64,000 bases of DNA from an uncultured Candidatus Saccharibacteria bacterium (GCA_964621555.1 CAZUOO010000001.1:1059-65058); one strand, 5' to 3'; shown: positions 7,202 through 39,463, counted from the stretch's first letter. Numbers and translations are program-made. Notes: generated from the letters alone by a model not told the origin.

Positions 7202-7807
7202 TTACATTTGGCTCATTACAAATTCAACCTTCCTTGACCACTCGTTAGGAGTGTGGGGGTTGTATCTTGGAGCAATTTGCTTAGGTGTGATTAGACCAGA
7301 TGCATGATATCTTGATAGTCCTCTTGTTACAGTGTAGATTCCTTCTTCCCAACTTGAAAAGGTGAATGCCTGCATACTTCCTCCCCAACCCCATGCATTA
7401 TATGGTCTATATGCATACTTACCACCACCTGATTCTATTATTGAAATGGCAGCAACTAGTCTATAGTCCAATCCAAATTCCTGGGCTGTCTTTACTAAAT
7501 ACTCTGCTTTGCTAGCTAGTGGAGCCCCTCTAGCGGCAAGATAGTTTCTAACCTTTCTCACCTTTATCTGATCCACGTCCATCAATTCCAATTTGGCAGA
7601 AATAGCCTGGTATTCTAACTCCTCATGTCCTGAAATTGATTGAGTGCCAAGTATATCTCCTTCATCAGCATATACTGCACCTATATATTCAGTATCTAAG
7701 AAGAAGAATACTTTCTCCTGAGTTTTAATTAAAAACCCAGAACTTAGGATTATAGTGAAGAGGTATAGCAAGAGGTTATTCAGTTTTGACGAATATCTTT
7801 TCTTCAT
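7202..7807 (-). CDS. Secreted lysozyme-like / SLT-like putative peptidoglycan hydrolase (paralog of 16330..17118)
   Basis: Signal-anchor N-terminus. Motif LVAAISIIESGGGKYAYRPYNAWGWGG resembles the SLT catalytic E-S motif. It shares a TVTRGL block with the paralog at 16330..17118. Confidence 0.45.
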   Translation of the reverse strand: MKKRYSSKLNNLLLYLFTIILSSGFLIKTQEKVFFFLDTEYIGAVYADEGDILGTQSISGHEELEYQAISAKLELMDVDQIKVRKVRNYLAARGAPLASKAEYLVKTAQEFGLDYRLVAAISIIESGGGKYAYRPYNAWGWGGSMQAFTFSSWEEGIYTVTRGLSRYHASGLITPKQIAPRYNPHTPNEWSRKVEFVMSQM

Positions 7808-7873
7808 ATAGTATTATTAGAAGTGTGGTATTATACCATATTGAGAGTTATTAACATGTAAAGAGGGAATAAA

Positions 7874-8506
7874 ATGATATTAGATATTATTAATTGGTTG
7901 GTGAATATTATTGACAGCATAGGGTATGTAGGGGTTTTCATAGCAATGTTCATAGAAAGTTTTTTTGCACCTATTCCTAGTGAATTGATACTCCCATTTG
8001 CAGGCTTTCTAAGTATTCAAGGTGAGATGAATATTGTAATAGTGATACTTGTTGCTGGATTGGCCAGCGCCTTAGGGTCACTACCTTTCTACCTTATTGG
8101 ATACTGGGGAAATGAGATTGTGTTGGATAGATTCCTTAAGAGATATGGGAAATATTTTTTTATATCCAATTCCGACATTGAAAAAGGCATGGAAATATTC
8201 GATAAATATGGGAATATTGTGGTATTGCTAGGTAGGTTAATCCCAATTATTCGAACCGTCATATCATTTCCTGCCGGTTTGGCAAAGATGAACTTCCTAA
8301 CCTTTATTGCCTACACTTTAGTTGGATCCACTGCTTGGAGCGCGGTATTAGCGCTCTCCGGTTATTTCCTAGGGGCTAAGTGGGAAATAGTTAACGTTTG
8401 GATTGAACAGTATCAGAATATAATCATAGTTGTAGGTGTGATTGCAGTACTAGCGTTCCTATTAAGAAAGTTGTATTTAAGTAGAGTTGCTCCAGCTAAA
8501 GCGTAG
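7874..8506 (+). CDS. DedA/VTT-family membrane protein
   Basis: Motif FIESFFAPIPSELILPFAGFL typical of the DedA/SNARE-associated family. A good AGAGGG RBS lies 8 nt upstream of the ATG. Confidence 0.8.
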   Translation: MILDIINWLVNIIDSIGYVGVFIAMFIESFFAPIPSELILPFAGFLSIQGEMNIVIVILVAGLASALGSLPFYLIGYWGNEIVLDRFLKRYGKYFFISNSDIEKGMEIFDKYGNIVVLLGRLIPIIRTVISFPAGLAKMNFLTFIAYTLVGSTAWSAVLALSGYFLGAKWEIVNVWIEQYQNIIIVVGVIAVLAFLLRKLYLSRVAPAKA

Positions 8507-10750: not shown

Positions 10751-11398
10751 ATGCCTCAAATAATACCAGGTAACACAAATCCACCAACACCTGTTCCAAG
10801 TCCTCCAAGTTGGGGTGGGGATAATTCTAACAATGCTAACCCTTGGGGTTGGAATCAACCTGGACAAACGCAAGGTCAAGAGAAGCGTTTAACACCACAA
10901 GAAAGAGTTGAGATGATTGAAAAGGTATATCAGGAGATATTAAACAGAAAGCCAGATACTAGGGATATCAACTACTACAAGTACTCTACGCTATCAGAAG
11001 AAGAGATAAGAAAACAACTAATAACGGGTAAGGAGCATAAACAGTTACTGGATGATGGAAAGGATTATAAAAAGATGAAGGACAGGGCTATGCAAGCTGA
11101 AACCAGAGTAAATATGCTTGAATCTCAAATCAAGGATCAAGTTGAGGAGTTTCGTCACCTTACAGAACTATTAACCGAGAAGAATCAATATATACAGCAA
11201 CTGAGGCAGAAGCTTAATAATCCATATAATTTAGTTGATAATAGACCTGCAGTTGTAGCTCCAGTAGTAGAACCAGTAATTGCATCTTCTGTAGGAAATC
11301 AAGTATATGCACAACCAGTTGAGAGTAGCATTCCGAAGGTACAACACTCTGCCAAAACTAGAATTCTAGATATAATTAAAAACATAATCCCAGATTAA
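10751..11398 (+). CDS. Hypothetical protein with a Pro/Gly/Asn-rich N-terminus, a DUF4214-like segment and a coiled coil
   Basis: ERVEMIEKVYQEILNRKPDTRDINYY resembles the DUF4214 core. The heptad-rich middle region suggests a coiled coil. Confidence 0.4.
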   Translation: MPQIIPGNTNPPTPVPSPPSWGGDNSNNANPWGWNQPGQTQGQEKRLTPQERVEMIEKVYQEILNRKPDTRDINYYKYSTLSEEEIRKQLITGKEHKQLLDDGKDYKKMKDRAMQAETRVNMLESQIKDQVEEFRHLTELLTEKNQYIQQLRQKLNNPYNLVDNRPAVVAPVVEPVIASSVGNQVYAQPVESSIPKVQHSAKTRILDIIKNIIPD

Positions 11399-11703
11399 TG
11401 AGTATTAAATTTGTAGCGGAAAGAATTAAAAAGGCTAGAGAGGAGAGGGGAATTTCCCAGAAAAAACTTGGGATGATATTGGGACTTTCGGACAAGGCAA
11501 TTAGTGCATATGAAGCTGGAAGAACTTACCCACCTTTGGATACATTATTTAAGCTCTCAAAAGAGCTCTCAAAGCCTGTTACATACTTTTTGGAAGAGAA
11601 TGGAGGTAAGGCGACTGTGGTAGATTCGTTGGCCAAGATATCTGAAAAAATGGCTTCTATCTCATTGGAAATAGAGAAGCTAAGTAAGAATATTAAGTCT
11701 TAG
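11398..11703 (+). CDS. XRE-family helix-turn-helix transcriptional regulator
   Basis: GISQKKLGMILGLSDKAISAYEAGRTYP matches the Cro/C1-type HTH. Its start codon overlaps the stop of the upstream gene. Confidence 0.75.
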   Translation: MSIKFVAERIKKAREERGISQKKLGMILGLSDKAISAYEAGRTYPPLDTLFKLSKELSKPVTYFLEENGGKATVVDSLAKISEKMASISLEIEKLSKNIKS

Positions 11704-12478
11704 GTATCAAGTTTGTTTTATACTCTTTTTCAACTCCTTCTAGGTATAACTTCTCCAGTTGAACAAGTCTATTAAAAGATGTTTTAAGCTCTCTCTGTAG
11801 TGTTTTTATCTTCTCACTACTAGGTTTATTATGAATGTTATAGACTATATCCCAATAATTATAGTACTCCCTCCAGTATTCAGAGAAGCCTGTTATATTT
11901 TTATCTATATACTGTTCTAGAGACTTCGCTGTATTTCTACATTCCGTAATTTCAGCTTTTATCTTTACATCAGTTGCTTTTAAAGGTATTTCATCAAAAC
12001 ACTTCTTGACGTTGCTGGCATCGGATATAAGTTGGTAGTATCCTTCTAGTGAGCTTACAAACCCATTATAGCTTAGATGTAATGAAACTCTCTCTCTTGC
12101 CATTTCTCTCTCTCTTTCATCAAATGATTTGATATCATATGTTAAGATTAGTATTTCATTGGATATGTATTGTAGTTCGGTGTTTATAATGCTGAAGAGA
12201 CCCAACTGTTCCATATATGTACTGTGTGCAGTTTGAGGTGAGTATATACTCAATTTCATAACTGCCTCCTTCACAGCATTAAACTCAGATATTTCATGAT
12301 TATACCTTTCAATATACTGATTTCTTTTACTATTAAGTAACTCCTCTTCTTTTTGGCTCTTAGTCGTAATATAGGAGGTTATTGTGAGCGCTACGATAGT
12401 CAAAACAAGGAACCCTATTATTATAGGGAGTAGGGGTTTTACTACCTTATTGAACTTTATTCTGGTGGAGTTAGCCAT
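11693..12478 (-). CDS. Hypothetical membrane-anchored coiled-coil protein (last gene of a 7-gene minus-strand operon)
   Basis: N-terminal TM helix, then a long charged helical region. Overlaps the upstream gene by 22 nt. Confidence 0.4.
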   Translation of the reverse strand: MANSTRIKFNKVVKPLLPIIIGFLVLTIVALTITSYITTKSQKEEELLNSKRNQYIERYNHEISEFNAVKEAVMKLSIYSPQTAHSTYMEQLGLFSIINTELQYISNEILILTYDIKSFDEREREMARERVSLHLSYNGFVSSLEGYYQLISDASNVKKCFDEIPLKATDVKIKAEITECRNTAKSLEQYIDKNITGFSEYWREYYNYWDIVYNIHNKPSSEKIKTLQRELKTSFNRLVQLEKLYLEGVEKEYKTNLIPKT

Positions 12479-13023
12479 ACCAATAACTTTTTATATGCAA
12501 ATTTCAGTGCAAAGTATAACCCGGCGAGTAATCCCGCATAGAATAGTGCGATGATTAAACCTCTTGTTAACACCGCTCCTGAGTATCCTGGGGTTTGTGG
12601 ATCTGTTACTAAATCCTCATCAAACCGAACAGTAATTGAATCTGAGGATGTGTAATTTGTATCAACCTCCCAGTCAATGATGTTGCCTGCTATGTTATAT
12701 GTACCATCTATAGATGGTGTTACATATGCTTTATATGCATACGTATCTCCTTTTTTGGTTGATATGAATTGTGGGTGTCTCTTCTTAAGCTTTAATCCAT
12801 CTGGTACGTCCCATGATATCTCAACTCGTTTAGCAGTTACATTTGATCTAAACTTTATATTGATTGGTACTGCCTTTGTCCATGGAGATTGTGTTCCTAA
12901 CGACATCTCTATATCGAAGTAGTCACCTGATATCACGGGTTTCTCCTCTGCAAATAGTGTGTTAGGAGTGATTATCAATACAGAGAGGATTAAAACGAAA
13001 GCAAGCTTGATTAGTTTGTTCAT
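12457..13023 (-). CDS. Hypothetical secreted protein with a C-terminal TM anchor
   Basis: Signal peptide ILSVLIITPNTLFA, a beta-rich ectodomain, and C-terminal helix GLIIALFYAGLLAGLYFAL. Overlaps its neighbours by 4 nt. Confidence 0.4.
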   Translation of the reverse strand: MNKLIKLAFVLILSVLIITPNTLFAEEKPVISGDYFDIEMSLGTQSPWTKAVPINIKFRSNVTAKRVEISWDVPDGLKLKKRHPQFISTKKGDTYAYKAYVTPSIDGTYNIAGNIIDWEVDTNYTSSDSITVRFDEDLVTDPQTPGYSGAVLTRGLIIALFYAGLLAGLYFALKFAYKKLLVWLTPPE

Positions 13024-13436
13024 CCTAATATCTGTGTAATCAATTTATAATATACCTCGTACGCAAGTTTAGTTTCTTCTTTTGTAACCTCTACATTCTC
13101 ATGCACAATTCTATTTCTCAATTTGTGATAATACCATATATCTTCATATAATGATTGTTTGACCCGCTTTCGAATTAATTTCAGGTTCTCACCAATCATA
13201 AGCTTATTGCTATTTTTATATTGAAGAACCTTCGAGAGTAGGCTGTCTAATCTCACGATACTATCTCTATTTGCGGAGTTTATCTCGAGTCCAATATTTC
13301 CCTTAATATCTTTTAGCTGTCTGTATATATCATTTCTACGTCTTTGCGAAACCTTTCTGCTTCCAAAACTAGCAAAAACAAAAAGAAGTATGATTAGGAG
13401 AATTATTACGGATGTTATATATAATGGGTTATCCAT
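13020..13436 (-). CDS. Hypothetical small N-terminally anchored protein
   Basis: N-terminal TM helix VIILLIILLFVFASFG followed by a basic, helical cytoplasmic domain. Confidence 0.35.
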   Translation of the reverse strand: MDNPLYITSVIILLIILLFVFASFGSRKVSQRRRNDIYRQLKDIKGNIGLEINSANRDSIVRLDSLLSKVLQYKNSNKLMIGENLKLIRKRVKQSLYEDIWYYHKLRNRIVHENVEVTKEETKLAYEVYYKLITQILG

Positions 13437-15315
13437 TTTTCTTAATCTTTTTAATTATATACCCAATCAGACTGTACAATACCATGAATATTATAAATGA
13501 AATTAAGATACTTTTTAATTCGTTTATTTCAGATGTTTGAATACCACCCTCTATTTTAGTTATTTTTTTGAAAACATTACCCTCTATATCGCTAAATGTA
13601 GATATAACCCGGCTGTCGCTATCTATATTGGTTTTGGGGAAAACAACCGAGAACTCTCGACTTTCACCAGGGATGATATTGTACGAAGTCCATAAGTTTT
13701 CAGCTTTAATTAAATCTTTTTCCTTCAGAATGGATAAGTTTTGTAGCTGAAGTATTCTATTCCCTTGATTAGAGACTGTTAGTACCCCTTTAATATATTT
13801 ATCACTTGTTTTTGTAAGTCTGAATGAAGTTTCGGTTGTAGTGAAACTTGTAACTGAATTGTATGCAGGATTAATTCTAAACTCCTCTGGTGAAAAGCGC
13901 GATATTTGAGGAAGGATTGAACTTTTGGACCTAGATACTAGTGCTATGTGGTCGTAATTTGTAGCAAGATATCTGCTTGGGAAGTAGTCCTCGAGAGCAG
14001 GGTCTAGCAGAATCCAACGGTTTTCATCAATATTCCAATACTCAACCCACGAGTGGAAAAATCCGTCTTCTTGATATGAATTCAATGGAGTAATGTATCC
14101 CAATACCATTCTACTTGGTACTCCTGCTTCCCTGAGTATTGCAATTAAAAAATCAGTATAATCATCGGGGTTTGCCCCATCGGATAGGATTCTTGAGATA
14201 TTTCCCATCCCAAGTCTAACCTCGGATTTTATCTCTCCACTTCCCAGTGGTAGTGGGTTAAGTCGATCTAAAGTATATCTATATAGTGACGTTACAAACT
14301 CCTTGCGTTGTTTGGCATCTGTAATTTGGTCGATTGTCGCAGGAAAAGAATTATTTCTAAGGTACACAGAAAGTCTCTTCATCTCGTCAGAGCTTGGAAA
14401 CTGCCAATAGTTATCCAGGGTTAAGTAGTTTTCAAACGTTAAGGGTAGTTTGTGCTCTTTCTCATCAAAGTATATATACCCTTCCGCTTCAATATTAATC
14501 GTCTCTTCCGGATTTAAAAGGTATGAGATATTAATATTAGATTCACTGTCAAACTCTATATCGAATGGGGTGGGTTTAATCTTTTCGTATAGCACGTGCT
14601 GTCCATCTCCTTCTCTTGGAATTGATATTTTGTAAATAGATGGTTTATCTGTGCTGTTGGTAATTTCCCTACTTATCTCAATTTTATATCCAATCTTCTC
14701 TCCAATAAGGATGGCAATAGCAGGGTTTGAGATATCCTTAGGGAATTTGAGACCAATAGTTATATTTGATCCTTCCTCTTTAACAACTTCATAATCTACT
14801 GACCCCCAAATCACTTTCCCAAACTTACTCGGAAATGTAATCTTCACATCCTCAGTCACGAAACTTGGTATAGGAGGGATTAGTATGTAGTAGTTAACTC
14901 CAGAGGTGTTAACATATGCTTTCATTACAATATTTGCAATGATTTCAGTTGATCCATTCTGGGGAACTATTAAGTTTGGCAGTTCAAGTGTGATTTTAAG
15001 TCCTCCAGTTTCAGACTTTTGGTTGTATTTATAAGGTGTGTCACCTATAGATATGATCAAACTATCGTACTTTTCAAATGGTATAAAGAAAGAAAAATTT
15101 GTTATTACAGACGGAGTACTAGTCTTGTTATTGAGTTTGAAATTATACCTAGCATATAGGTCTCCATTATTATTTACTTCAAAATATGATGAAGATGTTT
15201 TTAAGAGGTTGGGTGATGCCAAAACTTTTTGAGGTGTACTGAAGGAAAGTGACGCAAAAAAAAGAACGCTACAAGCTAACAGAGTCTTCTTTAAATAGCC
15301 ATTCAAATTTTTCAT
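13429..15315 (-). CDS. Secreted, C-terminally anchored protein with a transglutaminase-like (probably non-catalytic) domain
   Basis: Signal peptide, and the block FLIAILREAGVPSRMVLGY...FHSWVEYW...RWILLDPA matching the transglutaminase-like core, with Tyr in place of the Cys nucleophile. C-terminal TM helix plus KKIKKNG. Confidence 0.5.
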   Translation of the reverse strand: MKNLNGYLKKTLLACSVLFFASLSFSTPQKVLASPNLLKTSSSYFEVNNNGDLYARYNFKLNNKTSTPSVITNFSFFIPFEKYDSLIISIGDTPYKYNQKSETGGLKITLELPNLIVPQNGSTEIIANIVMKAYVNTSGVNYYILIPPIPSFVTEDVKITFPSKFGKVIWGSVDYEVVKEEGSNITIGLKFPKDISNPAIAILIGEKIGYKIEISREITNSTDKPSIYKISIPREGDGQHVLYEKIKPTPFDIEFDSESNINISYLLNPEETINIEAEGYIYFDEKEHKLPLTFENYLTLDNYWQFPSSDEMKRLSVYLRNNSFPATIDQITDAKQRKEFVTSLYRYTLDRLNPLPLGSGEIKSEVRLGMGNISRILSDGANPDDYTDFLIAILREAGVPSRMVLGYITPLNSYQEDGFFHSWVEYWNIDENRWILLDPALEDYFPSRYLATNYDHIALVSRSKSSILPQISRFSPEEFRINPAYNSVTSFTTTETSFRLTKTSDKYIKGVLTVSNQGNRILQLQNLSILKEKDLIKAENLWTSYNIIPGESREFSVVFPKTNIDSDSRVISTFSDIEGNVFKKITKIEGGIQTSEINELKSILISFIIFMVLYSLIGYIIKKIKKNG

Positions 15316-16000
15316 ACTTTCTTAGTATTTGCTTAATGATTGGGGTTTTAAGCGTAATCCCTAGTTTCATCAGTACTTCATCCCACTTTACTTTTCTAGG
15401 ATCGGAGACCATTTTATATCCTGGGTTCCGTACAGTCTCCTGTTTTGCGTTCTTCCTTATTACATAATAGGCCATACCATTCATATCATCAAGCTCATCG
15501 ATTTCATCCGATTTAGAGAATGAAATCTCACTTACAACAAGCATAGAGGATCTGGTATTTGTAATAGAGTATGCATAGTCAGCAGGAATAATAACCTTTG
15601 TATCCTTTTTCAGGTTCGAAATGATAATATCTCCTTCGAACTTCTTCTCAAAGTTTTGTAGGATTATGATTCCGGCTCCACTCACAACTTCTAATATCTT
15701 AGGGTAGCTTGTAGTTCGAACTCCACGTGTTTTCACATACTCAATCCCCGCGAGGTTTGATTGAATTGTTATCAGGTTAACTTTGATATTCTTAGATTTG
15801 TAGATTCCATCTTTATCGAAGTTATAATATTTGGTATAGAAAACTTCTGGACATGTAATTTCGCTATTGAGGAGTTGATCCTTCATATCTTTTATCTCGA
15901 ATGACGCTGAGTTTGAATATTGCAACTCAGATTCAACAACAATTCCATCTTCAATGATAACTGAAAATCCGAGTGTTTTCTTTAGATCTAACTTTGACAT
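15269..16000 (-). CDS. Hypothetical protein (possibly cupin-like beta-barrel)
   Basis: 243-aa ORF with no diagnostic motif. Overlaps the downstream transglutaminase-like gene by 47 nt in the operon. Confidence 0.3.
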   Translation of the reverse strand: MSKLDLKKTLGFSVIIEDGIVVESELQYSNSASFEIKDMKDQLLNSEITCPEVFYTKYYNFDKDGIYKSKNIKVNLITIQSNLAGIEYVKTRGVRTTSYPKILEVVSGAGIIILQNFEKKFEGDIIISNLKKDTKVIIPADYAYSITNTRSSMLVVSEISFSKSDEIDELDDMNGMAYYVIRKNAKQETVRNPGYKMVSDPRKVKWDEVLMKLGITLKTPIIKQILRKYEKFEWLFKEDSVSL

Positions 16001-16023
16001 GATTACATTATACCACGTGGCTC

Positions 16024-16311
16024 CTAATCTCTAGAAAATGCTTTGATAAGCTCAATAACTACATATCCTACTACCATATAGAAGGCTAGAGCTACTAAAG
16101 AATTTAAATCAAGTTTAACCCCAAAAAGCTCTAGAGTTGAAGAAGTGATTCCATAGAAAGGTTTTACAAAGGGCTCACTATATTCATAAACCCAATTAAC
16201 TAATGAGTTGCTTTTATTTGCATTAATAAATAGTAGTATAAACCTAATACCAATTAACGCCTCAATAAAAGTAATTGCTGTGTAAAGTAATCTTAATAGT
16301 AGTTTTATCAT
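16024..16311 (-). CDS. YggT-family small membrane protein
   Basis: VNWVYEYSEPFVKPFYGI matches the YggT/Ycf19 signature (TEPxLxPxR-like); two TM helices; 95 aa. Confidence 0.6.
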   Translation of the reverse strand: MIKLLLRLLYTAITFIEALIGIRFILLFINANKSNSLVNWVYEYSEPFVKPFYGITSSTLELFGVKLDLNSLVALAFYMVVGYVVIELIKAFSRD

Positions 16312-16329
16312 AGTAATATATTAATGTAA

Positions 16330-17118
16330 TTAATAAATAGTTTCAAGATTATCAACATAGTATTGAAGCTCATTCATAAATTGTGTCACACCATTTGCCC
16401 AAGCGTGTGCTGGGTTTCTACCACATGGAGGACAGTAGACAGGCTCAATATCAAATGGAGTTAGTGTAATACCGTAACCCAATGCCAAGCGTCTGGTAAC
16501 TGTCTCTATTCCATCAGCCCATGTTGGGAATATACTGTATGCCCCACCTGGCCCTCCTCTCCAACCCCAGCCATTATTGGAACGATAGGGTATTAAGTTT
16601 CCAAATGCGGATTCTACACCAGATATTGACGCCACCAATCTCCAGTCAAGACCATATTTATCAGCTTCCTTTACAAATACATCTGCATATATGTACATAG
16701 GAGAGTACCTATCTATCAAGTACTGTCGCATAGCTAAAATACGAGGATCTGTAGTTGTAATACTTGTCTCGCCTGCTGCTGCACCCAATATATTACCGTT
16801 GACTAAGAAAAAGGAGTCCGCGCTTGTAATGTACAAACTATTAGACTCCACAGGGGTCAATCTGTTAATCTCAAAGGTAGAACCTCTCTCAACATTCTGT
16901 GAAATTGAGACAGCGAGATCGGATCCAAATGCGAAATGGAATACCGCAAATGCTACAATGAAAAAGATTAATTTTATAGGCTTAGATAAAACTCTATCCA
17001 TAAAAGATGCTAATATTTTAAAAGAGAAATAGGTTTTATAATAAATCCCTATAATTAAGTATAATATAATTAAAATAACATATACCTGCAAATATAAAAA
17101 GAAATGAACTTCACACAT
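16330..17118 (-). CDS. Secreted lysozyme-like / SLT-like putative peptidoglycan hydrolase (paralog of 7202..7807)
   Basis: LVASISGVESAFGNLIPYRSNNGWGWRGG resembles the Slt ES-AFNP motif and shares the TVTRRL block with the paralog. The true start is probably the internal Met MDRVLSK... at about 17001, which gives a signal peptide. Confidence 0.45.
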   Translation of the reverse strand: MCEVHFFLYLQVYVILIILYLIIGIYYKTYFSFKILASFMDRVLSKPIKLIFFIVAFAVFHFAFGSDLAVSISQNVERGSTFEINRLTPVESNSLYITSADSFFLVNGNILGAAAGETSITTTDPRILAMRQYLIDRYSPMYIYADVFVKEADKYGLDWRLVASISGVESAFGNLIPYRSNNGWGWRGGPGGAYSIFPTWADGIETVTRRLALGYGITLTPFDIEPVYCPPCGRNPAHAWANGVTQFMNELQYYVDNLETIY

Positions 17119-20100
17119 CTACATCTACACTCTGAATACTCGCTACTAGATGGGGTAAGTCGACTCCCTGATTTGGCCTTAAAACTTCAGGAATTTAAAA
17201 TGACTGCTTGTGCATTAACCGACCACGGAAATATGTACGGAGCGTTTAAGTTCTATAACGAAATGAAGCACTCTGATATTAAGCCAATTATTGGATGCGA
17301 GATCTACATCTCCCCACGCACACGTTTTGATAAGGAGGCAGGTATAGATAATAAGTACTACCATATGACCGTGTTAGCAATGAACCTACAAGGGTATAAG
17401 AACCTCGTTAAACTTGTTTCAATCGGTTACATGGAAGGCTTCTACTATAAACCTAGAGTAGACTGGGAGGTATTAGAGAAGTACAACGAAGGGCTGATTG
17501 TGCTTTCAGGGTGTTTGAGTGGTGTGCTTTCCAAGCATATAAAGGTAGGTGAGCATAGCAAAGCTATTGAGAATGCCAAAAGATATTCAGAACTTTTCAA
17601 GAATCGTTTCTTTATCGAGATACAACGAAACGGAATAGATGAACAAGTAGAAGTGAATAATAAATTGCTTGAAATTGCAAAAGATTTAAAACTTCCCATA
17701 GTTGCAACTTGTGATGTTCATTACATAAATAAAGATGACTACCAAGTGCAGGAGATAGTATGGGCAATTGCCGATGGCAAAACACTTGAGGACCCAACTC
17801 GCAGAGTCGCCACTTCCAACGAATTCTACCTTAAAAGTAGTGAAGAGATGGTTGAACTGTTCAAGGATCTCCCAGAAGCAATTGAAAACACTCAAAAAAT
17901 AGCTGATATGGTAGAGGATTACTCTCTTACATTTGGGCGTGTTGAACCTCATTATTTAGACCTTCCAGAGGGTTCTAATCCTAAAGATTACCTTCGAGAG
18001 CTAGTATACGAAGGCGCTAAACGAAAGTATAAAGAGGTAACGAAAGAGATCTCTGACCGTATAGACTATGAACTCGGAATTATCAGCGATAAAGGATATA
18101 ACGACTACTTCCTAGTGGTTTATGACTTTGTAAACTTCTGTGTACGTAATGACATTATGGTTGGTGCAAGAGGTTCTGCAGTTGGTACAGTGGTTGGATA
18201 CTGTTTGGATATTGCGGGTGTTGATCCAATAACGTGGGAGTTATACTTCGAGAGATTCCTAAATCCAGGTAGAGATTCACCTCCCGATATTGACTTGGAT
18301 ATTTCCGACCAAAGAAGAGGTGAGGTAATCAAGTATGCACAAGAGAAATACGGAGACGCAAATGTAAAGCAGATTATAACCTTCAGTAAGCTCCAAACTA
18401 GACAGGCAATTAGAGATGTTTCTAGGGTAATGGGTATCGATTTACAGACCGCAGATAAGCTTTCAAAGCTTGTAAAGGTAGAGTTCGGTAAAGCCAAGTC
18501 AATTGACTATATGATCGAAAATGACGTTGAGTTTGCCCAAGTCATTAATTCTTCAGAGCGACTTCAGGAGATGAGCAGGATAGCTAAAAAGATCGCAGGA
18601 TTGGCTCGAGGAGTTTCTACACATGCCTGTGGGGTAATAGTCGCACCTGCACCCGTAGACGACTTTGTACCGGTACAGAAGGATTCTAAGAATGAAGGTG
18701 TTGGCATGTCCCAGTTTGAAATGATGGACATAGAATATGTAGGACTATTGAAGCTCGATTTCCTAGGTTTAAAGAACCTAAATATAATTGATAACGCTGT
18801 CCATAAAATAAAGAAAGGAAAGGATAAGGACTTCAACCTACTCGATATTGATGTGAACGATCAAAAGGTATATCAAATGCTAAGAGATGGACATACCATG
18901 GGTGTCTTTCAGCTAGAAAGTGAAGGTATGACGAAGGCATTGATAACAATTATGCCAGAGACACCTGAAGACCTTTGTTATATTCTCGCAGCATATCGCC
19001 CTGGCCCTATCGAATTTATTCCTGAGTATGCCGCGGTTAAGAAAGGTGAGAAAGAACCTCACTACATCTTGGAGGACCTAAAACCCATTCTCTCCGTTAC
19101 CAACGGAGTAATAACGTACCAGGAGCAGGTTATGAAAATCGCTACTGATCTTGCAGGATATACACTCTCTGATGCAGACAATTTAAGGCGAGCTATGGGT
19201 AAGAAGAAGATGGAGATCATGGAGGCAGAAAAGCCTAAGTTCATTTCAGGAGGAGAGGAAAGGGGATATCCAAAAGAAAGTATGGAAGAGATATGGGAGC
19301 TCCTTCTTAAATTCGCAAACTACGGATTCAACAAATCACATGCCGCCGCCTATGCAATGGTCTCATACTACACTGCATATCTTAAATACCACTACCCACT
19401 TGAATATATGGCAGCACTTCTTGAAGCAGACCTTGAAAACTTTAATAGAATATCTCTTGATATACAGGAATGCACCAGACTTGGGATTGAAGTTGTACAA
19501 CCAAATATAAATAAAAGTGGAGTATATTTCACCGTTGAAGAAGGCACACTAAAGAAGATTAGGTTTGGTTTAGGAGCTATAAAAAATGTCGGCCATGACA
19601 TCGTGGTTCAAATTGTAAAAGAAAGAGAGAAGAATGGCGAATACCGATCTCTTGATGACTTCATTTTGAGAAATATTAAGGGTAAGTTGCAGGTTAGGGT
19701 TGTAGAGTATCTAATTATGGCTGGAGCTATGGATATATGGGGAGATAGAAGAGCCCTCCTTACAATTCTTCCTGGGATATTTGAGAGATTTAAAAAACAG
19801 AAACAATCTGAGGAACATGGTCAGATAGATTTTTTCAACACACCTGGGGGATTAGAGGAGAACGCAGATTTAATTACCACGAAAGTGCCTGATGAAATTA
19901 AGTGCCCCATGAGAGAGGTGCTACAGTGGGAGAAAGATCTGCTTGGATTATACTTTTCCAGTCACCCACTAGATGACCTACAAGAATTCTTTGCACAGAA
20001 GAACGTTGTATCTGTTCAGTCCATACAAACATTACGTGCAGGTAAACTAATTGTACTCGGTGTTCTCTTTACAAAGGTACGTAGAATTTCCACAAAGAAG

Positions 20101-20508
20101 GGTGATATGATGGCATTTCTAACGGTAGAGGATAAATCCGGGGCAATAGATGCGGTAGTATTTCCCAAATTATATGATGAGATGAAAGATATGTTTGAGG
20201 CCAATACTCCAATTTTAATGGCAGCCAGAGTATCAGAAAGAGAAGGTGCAAAAAGTGTAATTATTGAGAAGGCTAAGCACGTGGATCAAGATAAATTCGC
20301 CTCAAACTTTAAAGGTGTCATTTTCAAAATAACTAAGAAACATACTAAAAAGCAGATCGAACTTCTAAAAACATACCTTAAAGATAATCCAGGTGACCTA
20401 CCTGTTAAAATACTTGTCCAAGAGAAGGACCAATTAAAGACCATTGATATCAAAAATAAAATTACCCTTACGCCTGAAGGTAGGGAACTACAGCAAGCGT
20501 TCTCATAA
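17104..20508 (+). CDS. dnaE: DNA polymerase III alpha subunit
   Basis: PHP-domain N-terminus FTHLHLHSEYSLLDG, a polymerase core and an OB-fold C-terminus; 1134 aa. Confidence 0.95.
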   Translation: MNFTHLHLHSEYSLLDGVSRLPDLALKLQEFKMTACALTDHGNMYGAFKFYNEMKHSDIKPIIGCEIYISPRTRFDKEAGIDNKYYHMTVLAMNLQGYKNLVKLVSIGYMEGFYYKPRVDWEVLEKYNEGLIVLSGCLSGVLSKHIKVGEHSKAIENAKRYSELFKNRFFIEIQRNGIDEQVEVNNKLLEIAKDLKLPIVATCDVHYINKDDYQVQEIVWAIADGKTLEDPTRRVATSNEFYLKSSEEMVELFKDLPEAIENTQKIADMVEDYSLTFGRVEPHYLDLPEGSNPKDYLRELVYEGAKRKYKEVTKEISDRIDYELGIISDKGYNDYFLVVYDFVNFCVRNDIMVGARGSAVGTVVGYCLDIAGVDPITWELYFERFLNPGRDSPPDIDLDISDQRRGEVIKYAQEKYGDANVKQIITFSKLQTRQAIRDVSRVMGIDLQTADKLSKLVKVEFGKAKSIDYMIENDVEFAQVINSSERLQEMSRIAKKIAGLARGVSTHACGVIVAPAPVDDFVPVQKDSKNEGVGMSQFEMMDIEYVGLLKLDFLGLKNLNIIDNAVHKIKKGKDKDFNLLDIDVNDQKVYQMLRDGHTMGVFQLESEGMTKALITIMPETPEDLCYILAAYRPGPIEFIPEYAAVKKGEKEPHYILEDLKPILSVTNGVITYQEQVMKIATDLAGYTLSDADNLRRAMGKKKMEIMEAEKPKFISGGEERGYPKESMEEIWELLLKFANYGFNKSHAAAYAMVSYYTAYLKYHYPLEYMAALLEADLENFNRISLDIQECTRLGIEVVQPNINKSGVYFTVEEGTLKKIRFGLGAIKNVGHDIVVQIVKEREKNGEYRSLDDFILRNIKGKLQVRVVEYLIMAGAMDIWGDRRALLTILPGIFERFKKQKQSEEHGQIDFFNTPGGLEENADLITTKVPDEIKCPMREVLQWEKDLLGLYFSSHPLDDLQEFFAQKNVVSVQSIQTLRAGKLIVLGVLFTKVRRISTKKGDMMAFLTVEDKSGAIDAVVFPKLYDEMKDMFEANTPILMAARVSEREGAKSVIIEKAKHVDQDKFASNFKGVIFKITKKHTKKQIELLKTYLKDNPGDLPVKILVQEKDQLKTIDIKNKITLTPEGRELQQAFS

Positions 20509-38305: not shown

Positions 38306-39454
38306 CTATATTTCCAAACTATGAAGTTGATTAAGCGTTTTTTCACTTAACTCTATCCTATTACCTGTAATCCCCTCAATAAATAGGTCAATATGTCTTC
38401 TACCCAACCTTTCTCCCTTTAATGCAAATGCGACCTTATCAATCATTTTTCGTAAGAAATATACATTCATTTTCTCCTCCAACCCATCAGGCTTGTATCC
38501 AAGCTCTGCCACATACCCTTCTATCATAGCCTCCCTCTTGGGAAAAGCCGATTTCCATGTCGGAGCAGTACCAAGCTCATTAATTGGATCAAACATTGCT
38601 GCATTCTCCCAGTCAAAGAAACAAAGAAAGTTACTATTCTCATAACACATATTAAGATCAGAGGGGTCATTATGAATTAAAGAGGCTATACTATCTGCAA
38701 AAAGACTTTTAACATTATCTGACTTGAAAAATCCCATCAGTTGAAACAGTTCATCAGCAGTAATTAGTTCGAATAATTTAATAACTTCTAGATCATGTTC
38801 CAAAAATGCTGTGAGGAAATCATTATGAGTACCATATACACCATATAACCCACTCTCATCCTTTCGTATCCTTCCCCAACCTCTTCCCTTATACTCCGTC
38901 ATCCTTGCAATATACTTACCTTGTTGAATACAAATCTTCTCATAATCGGATTGTGTGCCCTCCCATTGTGAACCTAAATTACGCCCCGGCAACCTTTTCA
39001 TAATTTGATAATCAAATGGGAATACCTTTCTACTAGAATCAGCATAGATCAACTCATTAACGGGGATACCTAAATCAATATAAATTTTCAGAAAATCAAA
39101 CTCCAGATCCATATACGTTTCTGGGTAGGGAAGTGATGCATTTGCCCTAACCACGACTTCACCATTTCTCGCTGTCTCTATAAATGCAATTACATGCCCA
39201 GTACCTAGAAGATCCGAAACACTGGAGTTAACAACTGTATCTGCAAGTCCATGTTGAATAATTGCAGGAAGGTATGAAGAGTCGAACATTTGCACCCTAT
39301 GTTGCAAGTCCTTAACCAACGCTTTAGGCCTATGTACATTGAAATAGTTTACAAAATCTGGACTGAATCCCTCTCCAAAATACTTATTATCTAACTCTTG
39401 CAGCTGACTTTCATAACTACTATATGATATCTTTTTGGTCATACTCATAAACAA
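38306..39454 (-). CDS. Second APH/kinase-like phosphotransferase family protein
   Basis: Motif HNDPSDLNMCYE...FFDWENA (HxDxxxxN...DWE). Confidence 0.5.
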   Translation of the reverse strand: MFMSMTKKISYSSYESQLQELDNKYFGEGFSPDFVNYFNVHRPKALVKDLQHRVQMFDSSYLPAIIQHGLADTVVNSSVSDLLGTGHVIAFIETARNGEVVVRANASLPYPETYMDLEFDFLKIYIDLGIPVNELIYADSSRKVFPFDYQIMKRLPGRNLGSQWEGTQSDYEKICIQQGKYIARMTEYKGRGWGRIRKDESGLYGVYGTHNDFLTAFLEHDLEVIKLFELITADELFQLMGFFKSDNVKSLFADSIASLIHNDPSDLNMCYENSNFLCFFDWENAAMFDPINELGTAPTWKSAFPKREAMIEGYVAELGYKPDGLEEKMNVYFLRKMIDKVAFALKGERLGRRHIDLFIEGITGNRIELSEKTLNQLHSLEI

Positions 39455-39463
39455 TTATACCAC

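What the first reader, a model, noticed from the sequence alone, without database searches (positions are those of the whole stretch)
11693..17118. Seven-gene, tightly overlapping minus-strand operon of anchored or secreted proteins of unknown function around a pseudo-transglutaminase
Seven genes lie on one strand with 4-47 nt overlaps. They are, in order: an SLT-like hydrolase, a YggT-like protein, a 243-aa unknown, a 628-aa secreted transglutaminase-like protein with a C-terminal anchor, a 138-aa N-anchored protein, a 188-aa secreted C-anchored protein, and a 261-aa N-anchored coiled-coil protein. None except YggT and the SLT-like fold is assignable. The combination of a cell-wall remodelling enzyme, a division-associated YggT and several single-pass surface proteins suggests an undescribed envelope or surface-structure module. 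It could be an attachment or cell-cell interface, which would be relevant if the organism is an episymbiont.
Basis: inference. Interest (0 to 1): 0.6.

Follow-up and report, generated by a model that had tools for sequence, protein, structure and literature searches.

The report
Membrane operon with pseudoenzymes and HEPN
The seven genes are real but form two units, and the core one, conserved in every sampled Dojkabacteria genome, combines two dead enzymes (a sugar isomerase and a transglutaminase), a membrane-tethered HEPN (RNase-type) domain and small surface proteins, a combination I could not match to any described system.

Summary
All seven minus-strand ORFs exist, but the description needs correcting. 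Only four of six junctions overlap. g1 is 223 aa, not 262. Two "unassignable" proteins are assignable.

g1 (lysozyme-superfamily peptidoglycan glycosidase) and g2 (YggT) form an upstream pair.

g3–g6 (plus g7 in this subclade) start at their own extended −10 promoter, TGnTATAAT, 5–9 nt before g3's ATG in 61/61 genomes, which suggests a leaderless mRNA.
- g3 is a cupin phosphoglucose-isomerase homolog that has lost all four metal ligands.
- g4 is a transglutaminase-fold type I membrane protein lacking the catalytic Cys in 62/62 orthologs.
- g6 is a small type I membrane protein with a conserved cytoplasmic WLTPP tail.

Gene order and exact overlaps (47, 8 and 4 nt) are conserved across 71 species genomes. 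g3–g6 stay together in the one rearranged genome. In an unrelated lineage, a g3 homolog is followed by a protein with g4's topology, a clear g6 homolog and a possible g7 homolog.

Best reading (inferred): a transmembrane complex linking the cell surface to cytoplasmic cupin and HEPN components. Function is untested.

The parts
16330..17001 (-). g1: exported or N-anchored lysozyme-superfamily peptidoglycan glycosidase, 223 aa. Belongs to the upstream g1-g2 pair, not the core module.
   Evidence: The true start is M40 of the longest ORF: P0013 is 223 aa at 100% identity and coverage. The family has at least 399 members. The family profile hits solved 'phage cell wall hydrolase' 8yxk at E=4e-4, with E130 aligned to a Glu. 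Members weakly hit Glucosaminidase (12/34), SLT_2 (9/34) and SLT (3/34). E130-S131 are invariant. Hydrophobic N-terminus.
16024..16311 (-). g2: YggT-family two-TM membrane protein, 95 aa
   Evidence: PF02325, 35.3 bits against a cut-off of 27. Two hydrophobic segments. The gap to g1 is 2 nt in 28 of 59 loci (median 2) and 18 nt in the window.
16007..16015 (-). Extended -10 promoter element TGGTATAAT, 6 nt upstream of the g3 ATG. Start of the g3-g6(g7) transcription unit, probably leaderless.
   Evidence: TGnTATAAT lies within 30 nt of the g3 ATG in 61/61 loci, with the hexamer ending 5-9 nt before the ATG. This includes rearranged L044. Background expectation is about 0.002 per 30-nt window. 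Controls upstream of g1, g2, g4 and g5 have TATAAT in 0-2 of about 60 loci. The transcription start itself is inferred, not mapped.
15269..16000 (-). g3: cytoplasmic cupin, a ligand-less homolog of cupin-type phosphoglucose isomerase (pseudo-PGI), 243 aa
   Evidence: PF06560, 48.4 bits. No hydrophobic segment. The PfPGI metal ligands His88, His90, Glu97 and His136 (PMC6627849) align to V94, T96, K101 and Y144. None is His in 62 orthologs. Of 126 family representatives, 53 have the full H/H/E/H site and 64, including all close relatives of g3, have no His. Best conserved protein of the block (median 46.7% identity).
15269..15315 (-). 47-nt dual-coding overlap between the end of g3 and the start of g4
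   Evidence: Exactly 47 nt in 56 of 61 species loci. The g4 N-terminus MKxLxGYLKK is conserved.
13429..15315 (-). g4: type I membrane protein, 628 aa. Signal peptide, two N-terminal beta-sandwiches, a transglutaminase-fold core without the catalytic Cys, a C-terminal beta-sandwich, a TM helix and a short K-rich tail.
13020..13436 (-). g5: N-terminal TM helix plus a cytoplasmic HEPN domain, 138 aa
13101..13118 (-). Codons for the g5 HEPN Rx4H motif (R107-N108-R-I-V-H112)
   Evidence: R107, N108 and H112 are invariant in 50 family members and 7 orthologs. An Rx4-6H motif with a polar residue after the R defines the HEPN active site (PMC3710099).
12457..13023 (-). g6: small type I membrane protein, 188 aa. 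Signal peptide, a beta-rich ectodomain of about 125 aa, a TM helix and a cytoplasmic tail ending W-L-T-P-P-x.
   Evidence: Topology. The tail motif is near invariant in 67 loci. A homolog occurs in an unrelated context in L084 (blastp E=5e-11; hhalign 98.3%, E=2e-14). No Pfam or PDB assignment. The beta-rich or Ig-like character is inferred from sequence only.
11693..12478 (-). g7: type II (N-in) membrane protein with an extracellular helical domain and two invariant Cys (C160, C180), 261 aa. A variable, subclade-specific end of the unit.
   Evidence: Orthologs occur only in L001, L002 and L009 (32-36% identity). None was detected in the 71 species loci. The L084 242-aa protein gives a weak match (hhalign E=0.033) that aligns the same C-x19-C motif. 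Topology.

Best explanation
The region holds two co-directional units.

Unit 1 (g1-g2) encodes an exported lysozyme-superfamily peptidoglycan glycosidase and YggT.

Unit 2 (g3-g4-g5-g6, plus g7 in this subclade) starts at its own conserved extended -10 promoter placed directly against g3's ATG, which suggests a leaderless mRNA. Its genes are joined by conserved overlaps, which suggests translational coupling. It encodes:
- a cytoplasmic cupin derived from phosphoglucose isomerase that has lost its metal site
- a large type I membrane protein whose transglutaminase-fold core has lost its nucleophile
- a membrane-tethered cytoplasmic HEPN domain with an intact Rx4H motif
- a small type I membrane protein with a conserved cytoplasmic WLTPP tail
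- in this subclade, a type II helical ectodomain protein

Most likely these products assemble into one membrane-spanning complex. The non-catalytic ectodomains (g4, g6, g7) would bind something at the cell surface. The cytoplasmic face (g3 cupin, g5 HEPN, g6 tail) would couple that to RNA binding or cleavage, or to sensing of a sugar phosphate.

Shown: gene identities and folds, loss of catalytic residues, the conserved promoter, the conserved overlaps, clade-wide conservation, and recurrence of a g3/g6-containing module elsewhere.
Predicted from sequence rules: membrane topology.
Inferred: physical complex formation, the direction and nature of any signalling, and RNase activity.
For: Separate unit: TGnTATAAT lies 5-9 nt before g3's ATG in 61/61 genomes, against about 0.002 expected.

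Coupling: the g3/g4 overlap is 47 nt in 56/61 loci, g4/g5 is 8 nt in 40/61, and g5/g6 is 4 nt in 57/66.

Conservation: dnaE-g1-g2-g3-g4-g5-g6 are in order in 57/71 species loci. The rest are cut by contig ends, except L044.

The unit stays together when the context changes. L044 keeps g3-g6 next to L19/iPGM without g1, g2 or dnaE. L011 keeps g1-g6 despite an integrase insertion and loss of the HTH gene.

Independent recurrence: in L083-L085, which have unrelated flanks, a ligand-less g3 homolog (E=5e-31) is followed by three overlapping genes. These encode a 480-aa protein with a signal peptide and C-terminal TM helix, a g6 homolog (hhalign 98%), and an N-anchored helical protein sharing g7's C-x19-C motif.

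Pseudoenzymes under selection: g3 is the best conserved member yet lacks all four ligands. g4 lacks Cys in 62/62 orthologs, while distant stand-alone homologs keep it.

Cytoplasmic interface: g5 is N-out/C-in, and g6 has a near-invariant cytoplasmic WLTPP tail.

HEPN: fold and motif are confirmed.
Against: - No direct evidence of protein-protein contact. Co-folding could not be run.
- The whole neighbourhood of about 14 genes, including housekeeping genes, is collinear in this clade. Synteny inside Dojkabacteria is therefore weak evidence of joint function.
- Overlapping genes are common in this genome: 13 of 43 pairs.
- The HEPN gene is missing from the analogous module in L084, so it is not an obligatory part.
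- The L084 480-aa protein matches g4 only weakly (hhalign probability 12%) and shows no detectable transglutaminase core.
- Another ligand-less cupin subclade (P0283 group) stands alone without membrane partners.
- Rearranged Dojkabacteria evidence is a single genome.
- Topology rests on hydropathy and the positive-inside rule only.
Confidence: 0.5

Rival explanations
1. Functionally unrelated genes sit side by side only because this streamlined, slowly rearranging genome packs genes tightly. There is no joint function.
For: The entire stretch uvrC-dnaE-g1...g6-HTH-cc215-L19-iPGM is collinear in nearly all 71 species loci. Overlaps are frequent genome-wide in the window, at 13 of 43 pairs. Distant Cys-bearing g4 homologs (P0011, P0012) stand without any of the other genes. 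The P0283-type ligand-less cupins stand alone.
Against: A dedicated, perfectly conserved promoter sits at g3. Overlap lengths are conserved to the nucleotide. g3-g6 remain joined in the one rearranged genome. A g3-like gene plus a g6 homolog, with g4-like and g7-like partners, recurs with overlaps in a completely different context.
Confidence: 0.2
2. One reading: all seven genes, including the cell-wall hydrolase and YggT, form one envelope or surface-structure operon, possibly for attachment.
For: All seven are co-directional with no terminator-like site between g1 and g6, so read-through from g1 is possible. g1 is a peptidoglycan glycosidase and g2 is YggT. g1-g6 are adjacent in 57/71 loci. 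Four products carry predicted extracellular domains.
Against: g3 has its own promoter. g1 and g2 are not adjacent to g3-g6 in L044, nor to the analogous module in L084. The g1 family is far more widespread than the module and has a paralog elsewhere in the window. g3 and the g5 domain are cytoplasmic.
Confidence: 0.15
3. A HEPN-based toxin-antitoxin or abortive-infection defence module, in which g5 is the toxin and a neighbour restrains it.
For: The closest structural matches to g5 include HepT-type toxins of HEPN-MNT pairs. The Rx4H motif is intact. HEPN domains are typically conflict-system RNases (PMC3710099).
Against: No nucleotidyltransferase (MNT) partner is adjacent. None of g1-g7 hits PADLOC at E<=0.1. 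The gene sits at one fixed locus in all 71 species genomes with near-constant length of 137-140 aa, unlike mobile, patchy defence genes. GC content is unremarkable.
Confidence: 0.1
4. g3 is simply the organism's working phosphoglucose isomerase, co-transcribed with unrelated membrane proteins.
For: The Pfam GPI match is above the curated cut-off. iPGM lies nearby. Cupin PGIs are known in CPR bacteria (PMC7304191).
Against: All four metal ligands are replaced in 62/62 orthologs. By contrast, 53 His-bearing relatives, one of them fused to PGK, keep them and score 128-137 bits against g3's 48.
Confidence: 0.05

Closest known systems
HepT (DUF86/UPF0331) HEPN toxins of HEPN-MNT toxin-antitoxin pairs (5yep_B, 7ae2, 8xdj), and B. 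subtilis YutE (1ylm)
   Different: g5 has an N-terminal TM anchor. It has no MNT partner, gives no defence-library hit, and is a fixed core-genome gene of a whole clade.
Predicted bacterial membrane-associated HEPN proteins and eukaryotic Ire1/C6orf70 ('stimulus-dependent RNA degradation', Anantharaman et al. 2013, PMC3710099)
   Same: A cytoplasmic HEPN domain held at the membrane by a TM helix and proposed to respond to surface stimuli. This is the closest published concept for how g5 might work.
   Different: The three described bacterial groups have other layouts: a DUF4145 domain with a WP-signature TM helix; an Abi2/SWT1 domain after a helical domain and TM helix; and HEPN-2TM-Zn ribbon. 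g5 has a bare TM helix without WP and no ectodomain of its own, so any sensing would have to come from g4 or g6. None of these systems, g5 included, is experimentally characterised to my knowledge.
Bacterial transglutaminase-like 'putative cysteine proteases' (3isr from C. hutchinsonii, 3kd4 BDI_1141) and TgpA (6g4h)
   Different: g4 lacks the nucleophilic Cys in all 62 orthologs. It carries extra beta-sandwich domains and a C-terminal TM anchor.
Non-catalytic transglutaminase folds used as scaffolds: erythrocyte protein 4.2 and Rad4/XPC
   Same: A transglutaminase fold kept without catalysis. Protein 4.2 chains appear among the Foldseek hits, and 6 of 12 g4 family members weakly hit the Rad4 TGase-like Pfam model. 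That these two proteins act as binding scaffolds is from my own knowledge.
   Different: No specific sequence relationship. Different cellular location (extracellular, membrane-anchored) and different partners.
Cupin-type phosphoglucose isomerase (PF06560; P. furiosus PGI 1x7n/4luk), and the ~260-aa 'long' bacterial form
   Same: g3 passes the Pfam cut-off. It aligns over 131 columns to PfPGI and end to end with the long form.
   Different: His88, His90, Glu97 and His136 are all replaced. g3 shares a distinct conserved C-terminal extension with the P0272 subclade, and the next gene overlaps that extension.
GH73 glucosaminidase / GH23 SLT lysozyme-like peptidoglycan hydrolases (for g1)
   Same: The profile matches a solved phage cell wall hydrolase, with the conserved Glu aligned. 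There are weak hits to both Pfam families.
   Different: No family-level Pfam match reaches threshold. Assignment between GH73 and SLT is unresolved.

Membership tests
HEPN superfamily (g5) | Alpha-helical up-down bundle of the HEPN fold | tested here: met
HEPN superfamily (g5) | Rx4-6H motif with a polar residue after the Arg (PMC3710099) | tested here: met
   R107-N108-x3-H112 is invariant in 50 family members and 7 orthologs.
HEPN superfamily (g5) | Metal-independent endoRNase activity | not testable with these tools
   Needs an RNA cleavage assay of the soluble domain, with and without R107A/H112A.
HepT-MNT toxin-antitoxin system (g5) | Adjacent minimal nucleotidyltransferase (MNT) antitoxin gene | tested here: not met
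   No NTase domain in any neighbour (Pfam and NCBIfam). The neighbours are g4 and g6 in all loci.
Transglutaminase-like superfamily (g4) | Papain-like transglutaminase core fold and a Pfam PF01841 match | tested here: met
Transglutaminase-like superfamily (g4) | Cys-His-Asp catalytic triad | tested here: not met
   The Cys column holds P, S, A, N, T or Q in 62/62 orthologs. His is kept in 53/62 and Asp in 53/62. Distant homologs P0010-12 have Cys.
Cupin-type phosphoglucose isomerase PF06560 (g3) | Sequence match above Pfam's gathering score | tested here: met
   48.4 bits against a cut-off of 20.7.
Cupin-type phosphoglucose isomerase PF06560 (g3) | Metal ligands His88, His90, Glu97 and His136 (PMC6627849) | tested here: not met
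   They map to V94, T96, K101 and Y144. No His at these columns in 62 orthologs. In the wider family, 53 representatives have all three His and 64 have none.
Cupin-type phosphoglucose isomerase PF06560 (g3) | Glucose-6-phosphate/fructose-6-phosphate isomerase activity | not testable with these tools
   Needs an enzyme assay.
YggT family (g2) | PF02325 match above the cut-off, and two TM segments | tested here: met
   35.3 bits against a cut-off of 27. Two hydrophobic segments.
Lysozyme-like peptidoglycan glycosidase, GH73/SLT (g1) | Family-level profile match and a conserved catalytic Glu | tested here: inconclusive
   No Pfam family reaches threshold (best E 0.0093 for Glucosaminidase and 0.019 for SLT_2). 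The family profile hits solved hydrolase 8yxk at E=4e-4, with invariant E130 aligned to a Glu. This gives superfamily-level support only.
Single seven-gene operon | One promoter and one transcript covering all seven genes | tested here: not met
   A conserved internal extended -10 element lies at g3 in 61/61 genomes. Read-through from g1 cannot be excluded, because no terminator-like site lies between g2 and g3. Transcripts were not measured.
Known anti-phage defence systems | Match to a PADLOC model | tested here: not met
   No hit for g1-g7 at E<=0.1.

The most novel reading that the evidence does not exclude
g3-g6 form an Ire1-like envelope-to-RNA signalling device specific to a CPR phylum. 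In this reading, the dead transglutaminase and the small beta-rich ectodomains act as a surface receptor, for a host-cell or cell-wall ligand. Ligand binding changes the oligomeric state of the membrane-tethered HEPN domain and so switches on RNA cleavage at the inner face of the membrane. The dead phosphoglucose isomerase serves as a sugar-phosphate-sensing or inhibitory subunit that binds the cytoplasmic tails.
Probability: 0.12. Interest if true: 0.85.

Novelty: new variant of a known kind. Interest (0 to 1): 0.6.

Why it matters
Dojkabacteria are described as having extremely minimal metabolic complements (PMC7304191). A four-gene unit kept in every sampled species, with nucleotide-exact overlaps and its own promoter, is therefore probably important to these cells.

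It contains two enzymes that have been converted into non-catalytic proteins and an apparently intact RNase-type domain tethered to the membrane. That makes it a concrete, testable candidate for the "stimulus-dependent RNA degradation at the membrane" that was predicted for bacteria in 2013 and, to my knowledge, has not been demonstrated.

It also corrects an annotation trap. PF06560 hits in this lineage should not be counted as a glycolytic step in metabolic reconstructions of CPR bacteria.

Tried and rejected
- **g3 as a working glycolytic PGI.** This was my first reading. I rejected it after the ligand analysis.
- **All seven genes as one operon.** Replaced by the two-unit model after the promoter analysis.
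- **Single-sequence PDB searches** for g1 and g3 found nothing useful.
- **Profile PDB searches** for g6 and g7 gave only insignificant hits. Both remain without a fold assignment, because both structure-prediction slots went to g4 and g5.
- **The afdb50 fold library** was unavailable.
- **The window's own contig** could not be retrieved or named.
- **g7-like genes elsewhere in Dojkabacteria:** none was found. The 252-aa gene of L005 is unrelated.
- **The repetitive protein P0279** that matched g3's C-terminus is low-complexity and spurious.
- **The Ost1/ribophorin-I resemblance** of g4's N-terminal half scores about the same as generic beta-sandwich hits such as M1 aminopeptidase N-domains. 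I do not rely on it.
- **PHROGs** gave nothing meaningful.
- **Literature searches** for Dojkabacteria plus transglutaminase, membrane-anchored HEPN, and CPR plus HEPN or pseudoenzyme found no description of this module.


Full report
**1. Observation**

The window (about 36% GC) carries seven minus-strand ORFs between 11693 and 17118. They are bounded by divergent dnaE (17104-20508) and a convergent HTH gene (11398-11703).

| Gene | Coordinates | Length |
|---|---|---|
| g1 | 16330-17001 | 223 aa |
| g2 | 16024-16311 | 95 aa |
| g3 | 15269-16000 | 243 aa |
| g4 | 13429-15315 | 628 aa |
| g5 | 13020-13436 | 138 aa |
| g6 | 12457-13023 | 188 aa |
| g7 | 11693-12478 | 261 aa |

The database protein identical to it is 223 aa, and orthologs are 223-244 aa.

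Only four junctions overlap: g3/g4 by 47 nt, g4/g5 by 8, g5/g6 by 4 and g6/g7 by 22. g1/g2 and g2/g3 are gaps of 18 and 23 nt. Overlaps are common in this genome, in 13 of 43 same-strand neighbour pairs, so tight packing alone is not remarkable.

**2. What each gene is**

*g1.* It belongs to a family of at least 399 proteins. The family profile matches a solved phage cell-wall hydrolase (8yxk, E=4e-4), with the invariant Glu130 aligned to a Glu. Individual members hit Glucosaminidase/GH73 (12/34) and SLT models (12/34) only weakly. So "SLT-like" is right at the lysozyme-superfamily level but unresolved at the family level. A paralog lies at 7202-7807.

*g2.* It is YggT.

*g3.* It is not unknown. 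It passes Pfam's cut-off for cupin-type glucose-6-phosphate isomerase (48.4 bits). But it is not a working isomerase by the known mechanism.
- The P. furiosus enzyme binds its metal through His88, His90, Glu97 and His136 (PMC6627849).
- A profile of 36 g3 orthologs aligns to that enzyme over 131 columns and places V94, T96, K101 and Y144 at these positions.
- None of 62 orthologs has His at the three His positions.
- An exhaustive search found 256 related clusters of mostly 240-275 aa.
- Among 126 full-length representatives, 53 carry the complete His/His/Glu/His site and 64, including all close relatives of g3, have none.
- His-bearing members score 128-137 bits on PF06560, and one is fused to phosphoglycerate kinase. 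So the intact branch looks glycolytic and g3's branch is derived.
- g3 is nevertheless the best conserved protein of the block (median 46.7% identity across 62 species, against 28% for g4).

The "pseudo" label is confirmed and sharpened. The nucleophile column is never Cys in 62 orthologs, and His and Asp are each kept in 53/62. Distant homologs that stand alone in other genomes keep the Cys.

*g5.* This is the main new assignment.
- Its family has at least 305 members, almost all exactly 138 aa.
- Members repeatedly hit HEPN-clan Pfam models (HepT-like best at 3.4e-5).
- The AF2 model is confident (pLDDT 91.9).
- R107-N108-x3-H112 is invariant, matching the Rx4-6H active-site signature (PMC3710099).
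- The single TM helix is followed by a strongly basic segment (mean net charge +4.5, against -0.9 before it). The HEPN domain is therefore predicted to be cytoplasmic.

*g6.* It has a signal peptide, a beta-rich ectodomain, a TM helix and a cytoplasmic tail ending in a near-invariant W-L-T-P-P-x.

*g7.* It is an N-anchored helical protein with two invariant cysteines. It has no Pfam or PDB match.

**3. Organisation**

A perfect extended -10 element (TGnTATAAT) lies with its 3' end 5-9 nt upstream of g3's ATG in 61 of 61 genomes, the rearranged one included. The expectation is about 0.002 per 30-nt window. Upstream of g1, g2, g4 and g5, TATAAT occurs in 0-2 loci each. In the window it is TGGTATAAT at 16015-16007, 6 nt from the ATG.

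That spacing predicts a leaderless or nearly leaderless mRNA. This is an inference, because no transcript data exist.

The window has nine such elements. Only two abut a start codon. So this is the organism's normal promoter type, used here in an unusual position.

Downstream, overlap lengths are conserved to the nucleotide: 47 nt in 56/61 loci, 8 nt in 40/61 and 4 nt in 57/66. g1/g2 and g2/g3 are short gaps. The cluster is therefore g1-g2 plus g3-g6(g7), although read-through from g1 cannot be excluded.

**4. Conservation and linkage**

Homologs point to Candidatus Dojkabacteria/WS6.

In 71 species-representative genomes carrying g5, the order dnaE-g1-g2-g3-g4-g5-g6 is complete in 57. Of the other 14, 13 are cut by contig ends and none conflicts for g3-g6.

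The flanking housekeeping genes are equally collinear, so within-clade synteny is weak evidence for joint function. Three observations go further.
- **(a)** In L044, the one rearranged genome, g3-g6 sit beside L19/iPGM without g1, g2 or dnaE.
- **(b)** In L011, an integrase insertion and loss of the HTH gene leave g1-g6 intact.
- **(c)** In contigs with unrelated flanks (L083-L085: DnaJ, PilM/FtsA-like, SHMT), a ligand-less g3 homolog (30% identity, E=5e-31) opens a unit after a 611-nt gap. It is followed by three overlapping genes:
  - a 480-aa protein with a signal peptide and C-terminal TM helix, in g4's position and with g4's topology; there is only a weak N-terminal profile match (E=0.0024) and no detectable TGase core
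  - a clear g6 homolog (hhalign 98.3%, E=2e-14)
  - an N-anchored helical protein whose weak match to g7 (E=0.033) aligns the same C-x19-C motif

No HEPN gene is present in that locus.

A third ligand-less subclade (P0283 group) stands alone. The association therefore holds for the two subclades that share g3's C-terminal extension, not for all ligand-less relatives.

g7 was found only in the window's close relatives and in none of the 71 loci.

**5. Mechanism**

Shown: the identities, lost catalytic residues, promoter, overlaps and conservation described above. Predicted from sequence rules: the membrane topologies.

Inferred: the products form one membrane-spanning assembly. Outside the cell would be about 570 aa of g4, about 125 aa of g6 and, here, about 225 aa of g7, all apparently non-catalytic binding modules. 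Inside would be the g3 cupin, the g5 HEPN domain and the conserved g6 tail.

The closest published concept is the predicted "stimulus-dependent RNA degradation" by membrane-associated HEPN proteins, likened to Ire1 (PMC3710099). g5 differs from the three described groups in having no sensor domain of its own, so g4 or g6 would have to supply sensing.

Because the L084 variant lacks HEPN, the ancestral core may be cupin plus ectodomain proteins, with HEPN as a Dojkabacteria addition.

I put 0.5 on the two-unit, transmembrane-complex reading. I put about 0.12 on the specific signalling model.

**6. Rivals**

- **Mere genome stasis (0.2).** Countered by the promoter, the exact overlaps, L044 and L084.
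Countered by the internal promoter, the separability of g1/g2 and the cytoplasmic members.
- **A HEPN toxin-antitoxin or defence module (0.1).** Countered by the absence of an MNT partner, the lack of PADLOC hits and the fixed core-genome location.
- **A working PGI (0.05).** Countered by the ligand loss.

**7. Novelty**

Each part belongs to a known superfamily. I found no published description of the combination: a ligand-less cupin PGI, a Cys-less transglutaminase-fold membrane protein, a TM-tethered HEPN domain and a small tail-motif membrane protein in one conserved leaderless unit.

I rate it a new variant of a known kind (membrane-associated HEPN systems and pseudoenzyme scaffolds), with interest 0.6. 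It is a phylum-wide conserved unit in very small genomes, with a clear experimental path but no functional data yet.

It also carries a practical warning: PF06560 hits in this lineage are not evidence for a glycolytic step.

Noticed in passing
window 7202-7807 (-), with TGnTATAAT at 7838 (-): A 201-aa paralog of g1 (39% identity over the catalytic half) with its own extended -10 element. It sits next to a VTT/DedA-family membrane protein (7874-8506, +). The same arrangement occurs in L001 and L002.
   Followed up: partly
window 39448-39462 (-): A second promoter-against-start-codon arrangement: TGnTATAAT lies 5 nt before the ATG of a 380-aa ORF. This suggests a small set of leaderless genes in this genome.
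   Followed up: no
window 10751-11703 (+): A 215-aa protein with a P/G/W/N-rich N-terminus, a weak DUF4214 match and a coiled coil overlaps (ATGA) a 101-aa XRE-type HTH gene. The pair is convergent with g7 and is conserved beside the block in nearly all 71 species loci.
   Followed up: partly
window 12413-12428 (-): The only terminator-like hairpin in 10-18 kb lies 29 nt after g6's stop, inside the 5' part of g7. It could attenuate g7 expression. One site against 4.3 expected from shuffles, so it is not significant by itself.
   Followed up: no
L011 1973-4522: A phage-type integrase and three small ORFs are inserted between uvrC and dnaE, and the HTH gene is missing. g1-g6 are untouched.
   Followed up: partly
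L004 2835-6244: dnaE is called as two ORFs (437 and 695 aa) in this relative. This could be a frameshift, an assembly error or a genuine split.
   Followed up: no
L012-L082 record titles: Many representative MAGs carrying the Dojkabacteria-type block are titled 'uncultured Candidatus Saccharibacteria bacterium'. The submitter labels look inconsistent with the shared gene order.
   Followed up: no
P0336 (1135 aa): A natural fusion of phosphoglycerate kinase (PF00162) with a His-bearing long cupin PGI (PF06560, 128 bits).
   Followed up: partly
L086, L087 and L092, around the match (8001-8759 in L086 and L092; 4439-5197 in L087): A different ligand-less cupin subclade (P0283 group) stands alone upstream of a ~970-aa cytoplasmic protein, with no membrane partners. 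Loss of the PGI metal site therefore occurred in, or spread to, lineages without the membrane module.
   Followed up: partly
L084 4332-7389: Upstream of the analogous module lie a PilM/FtsA-like ATPase and a 599-aa single-TM protein with a Baseplate_J Pfam hit. Their relation to the module is unknown.
   Followed up: no
L008 4208-4615: A Cys-bearing distant g4 homolog (P0011) is followed by an overlapping 135-aa Phage_holin_4_2-family membrane protein and SecG. A small membrane partner occupies the position that g5 holds in Dojkabacteria.
   Followed up: no
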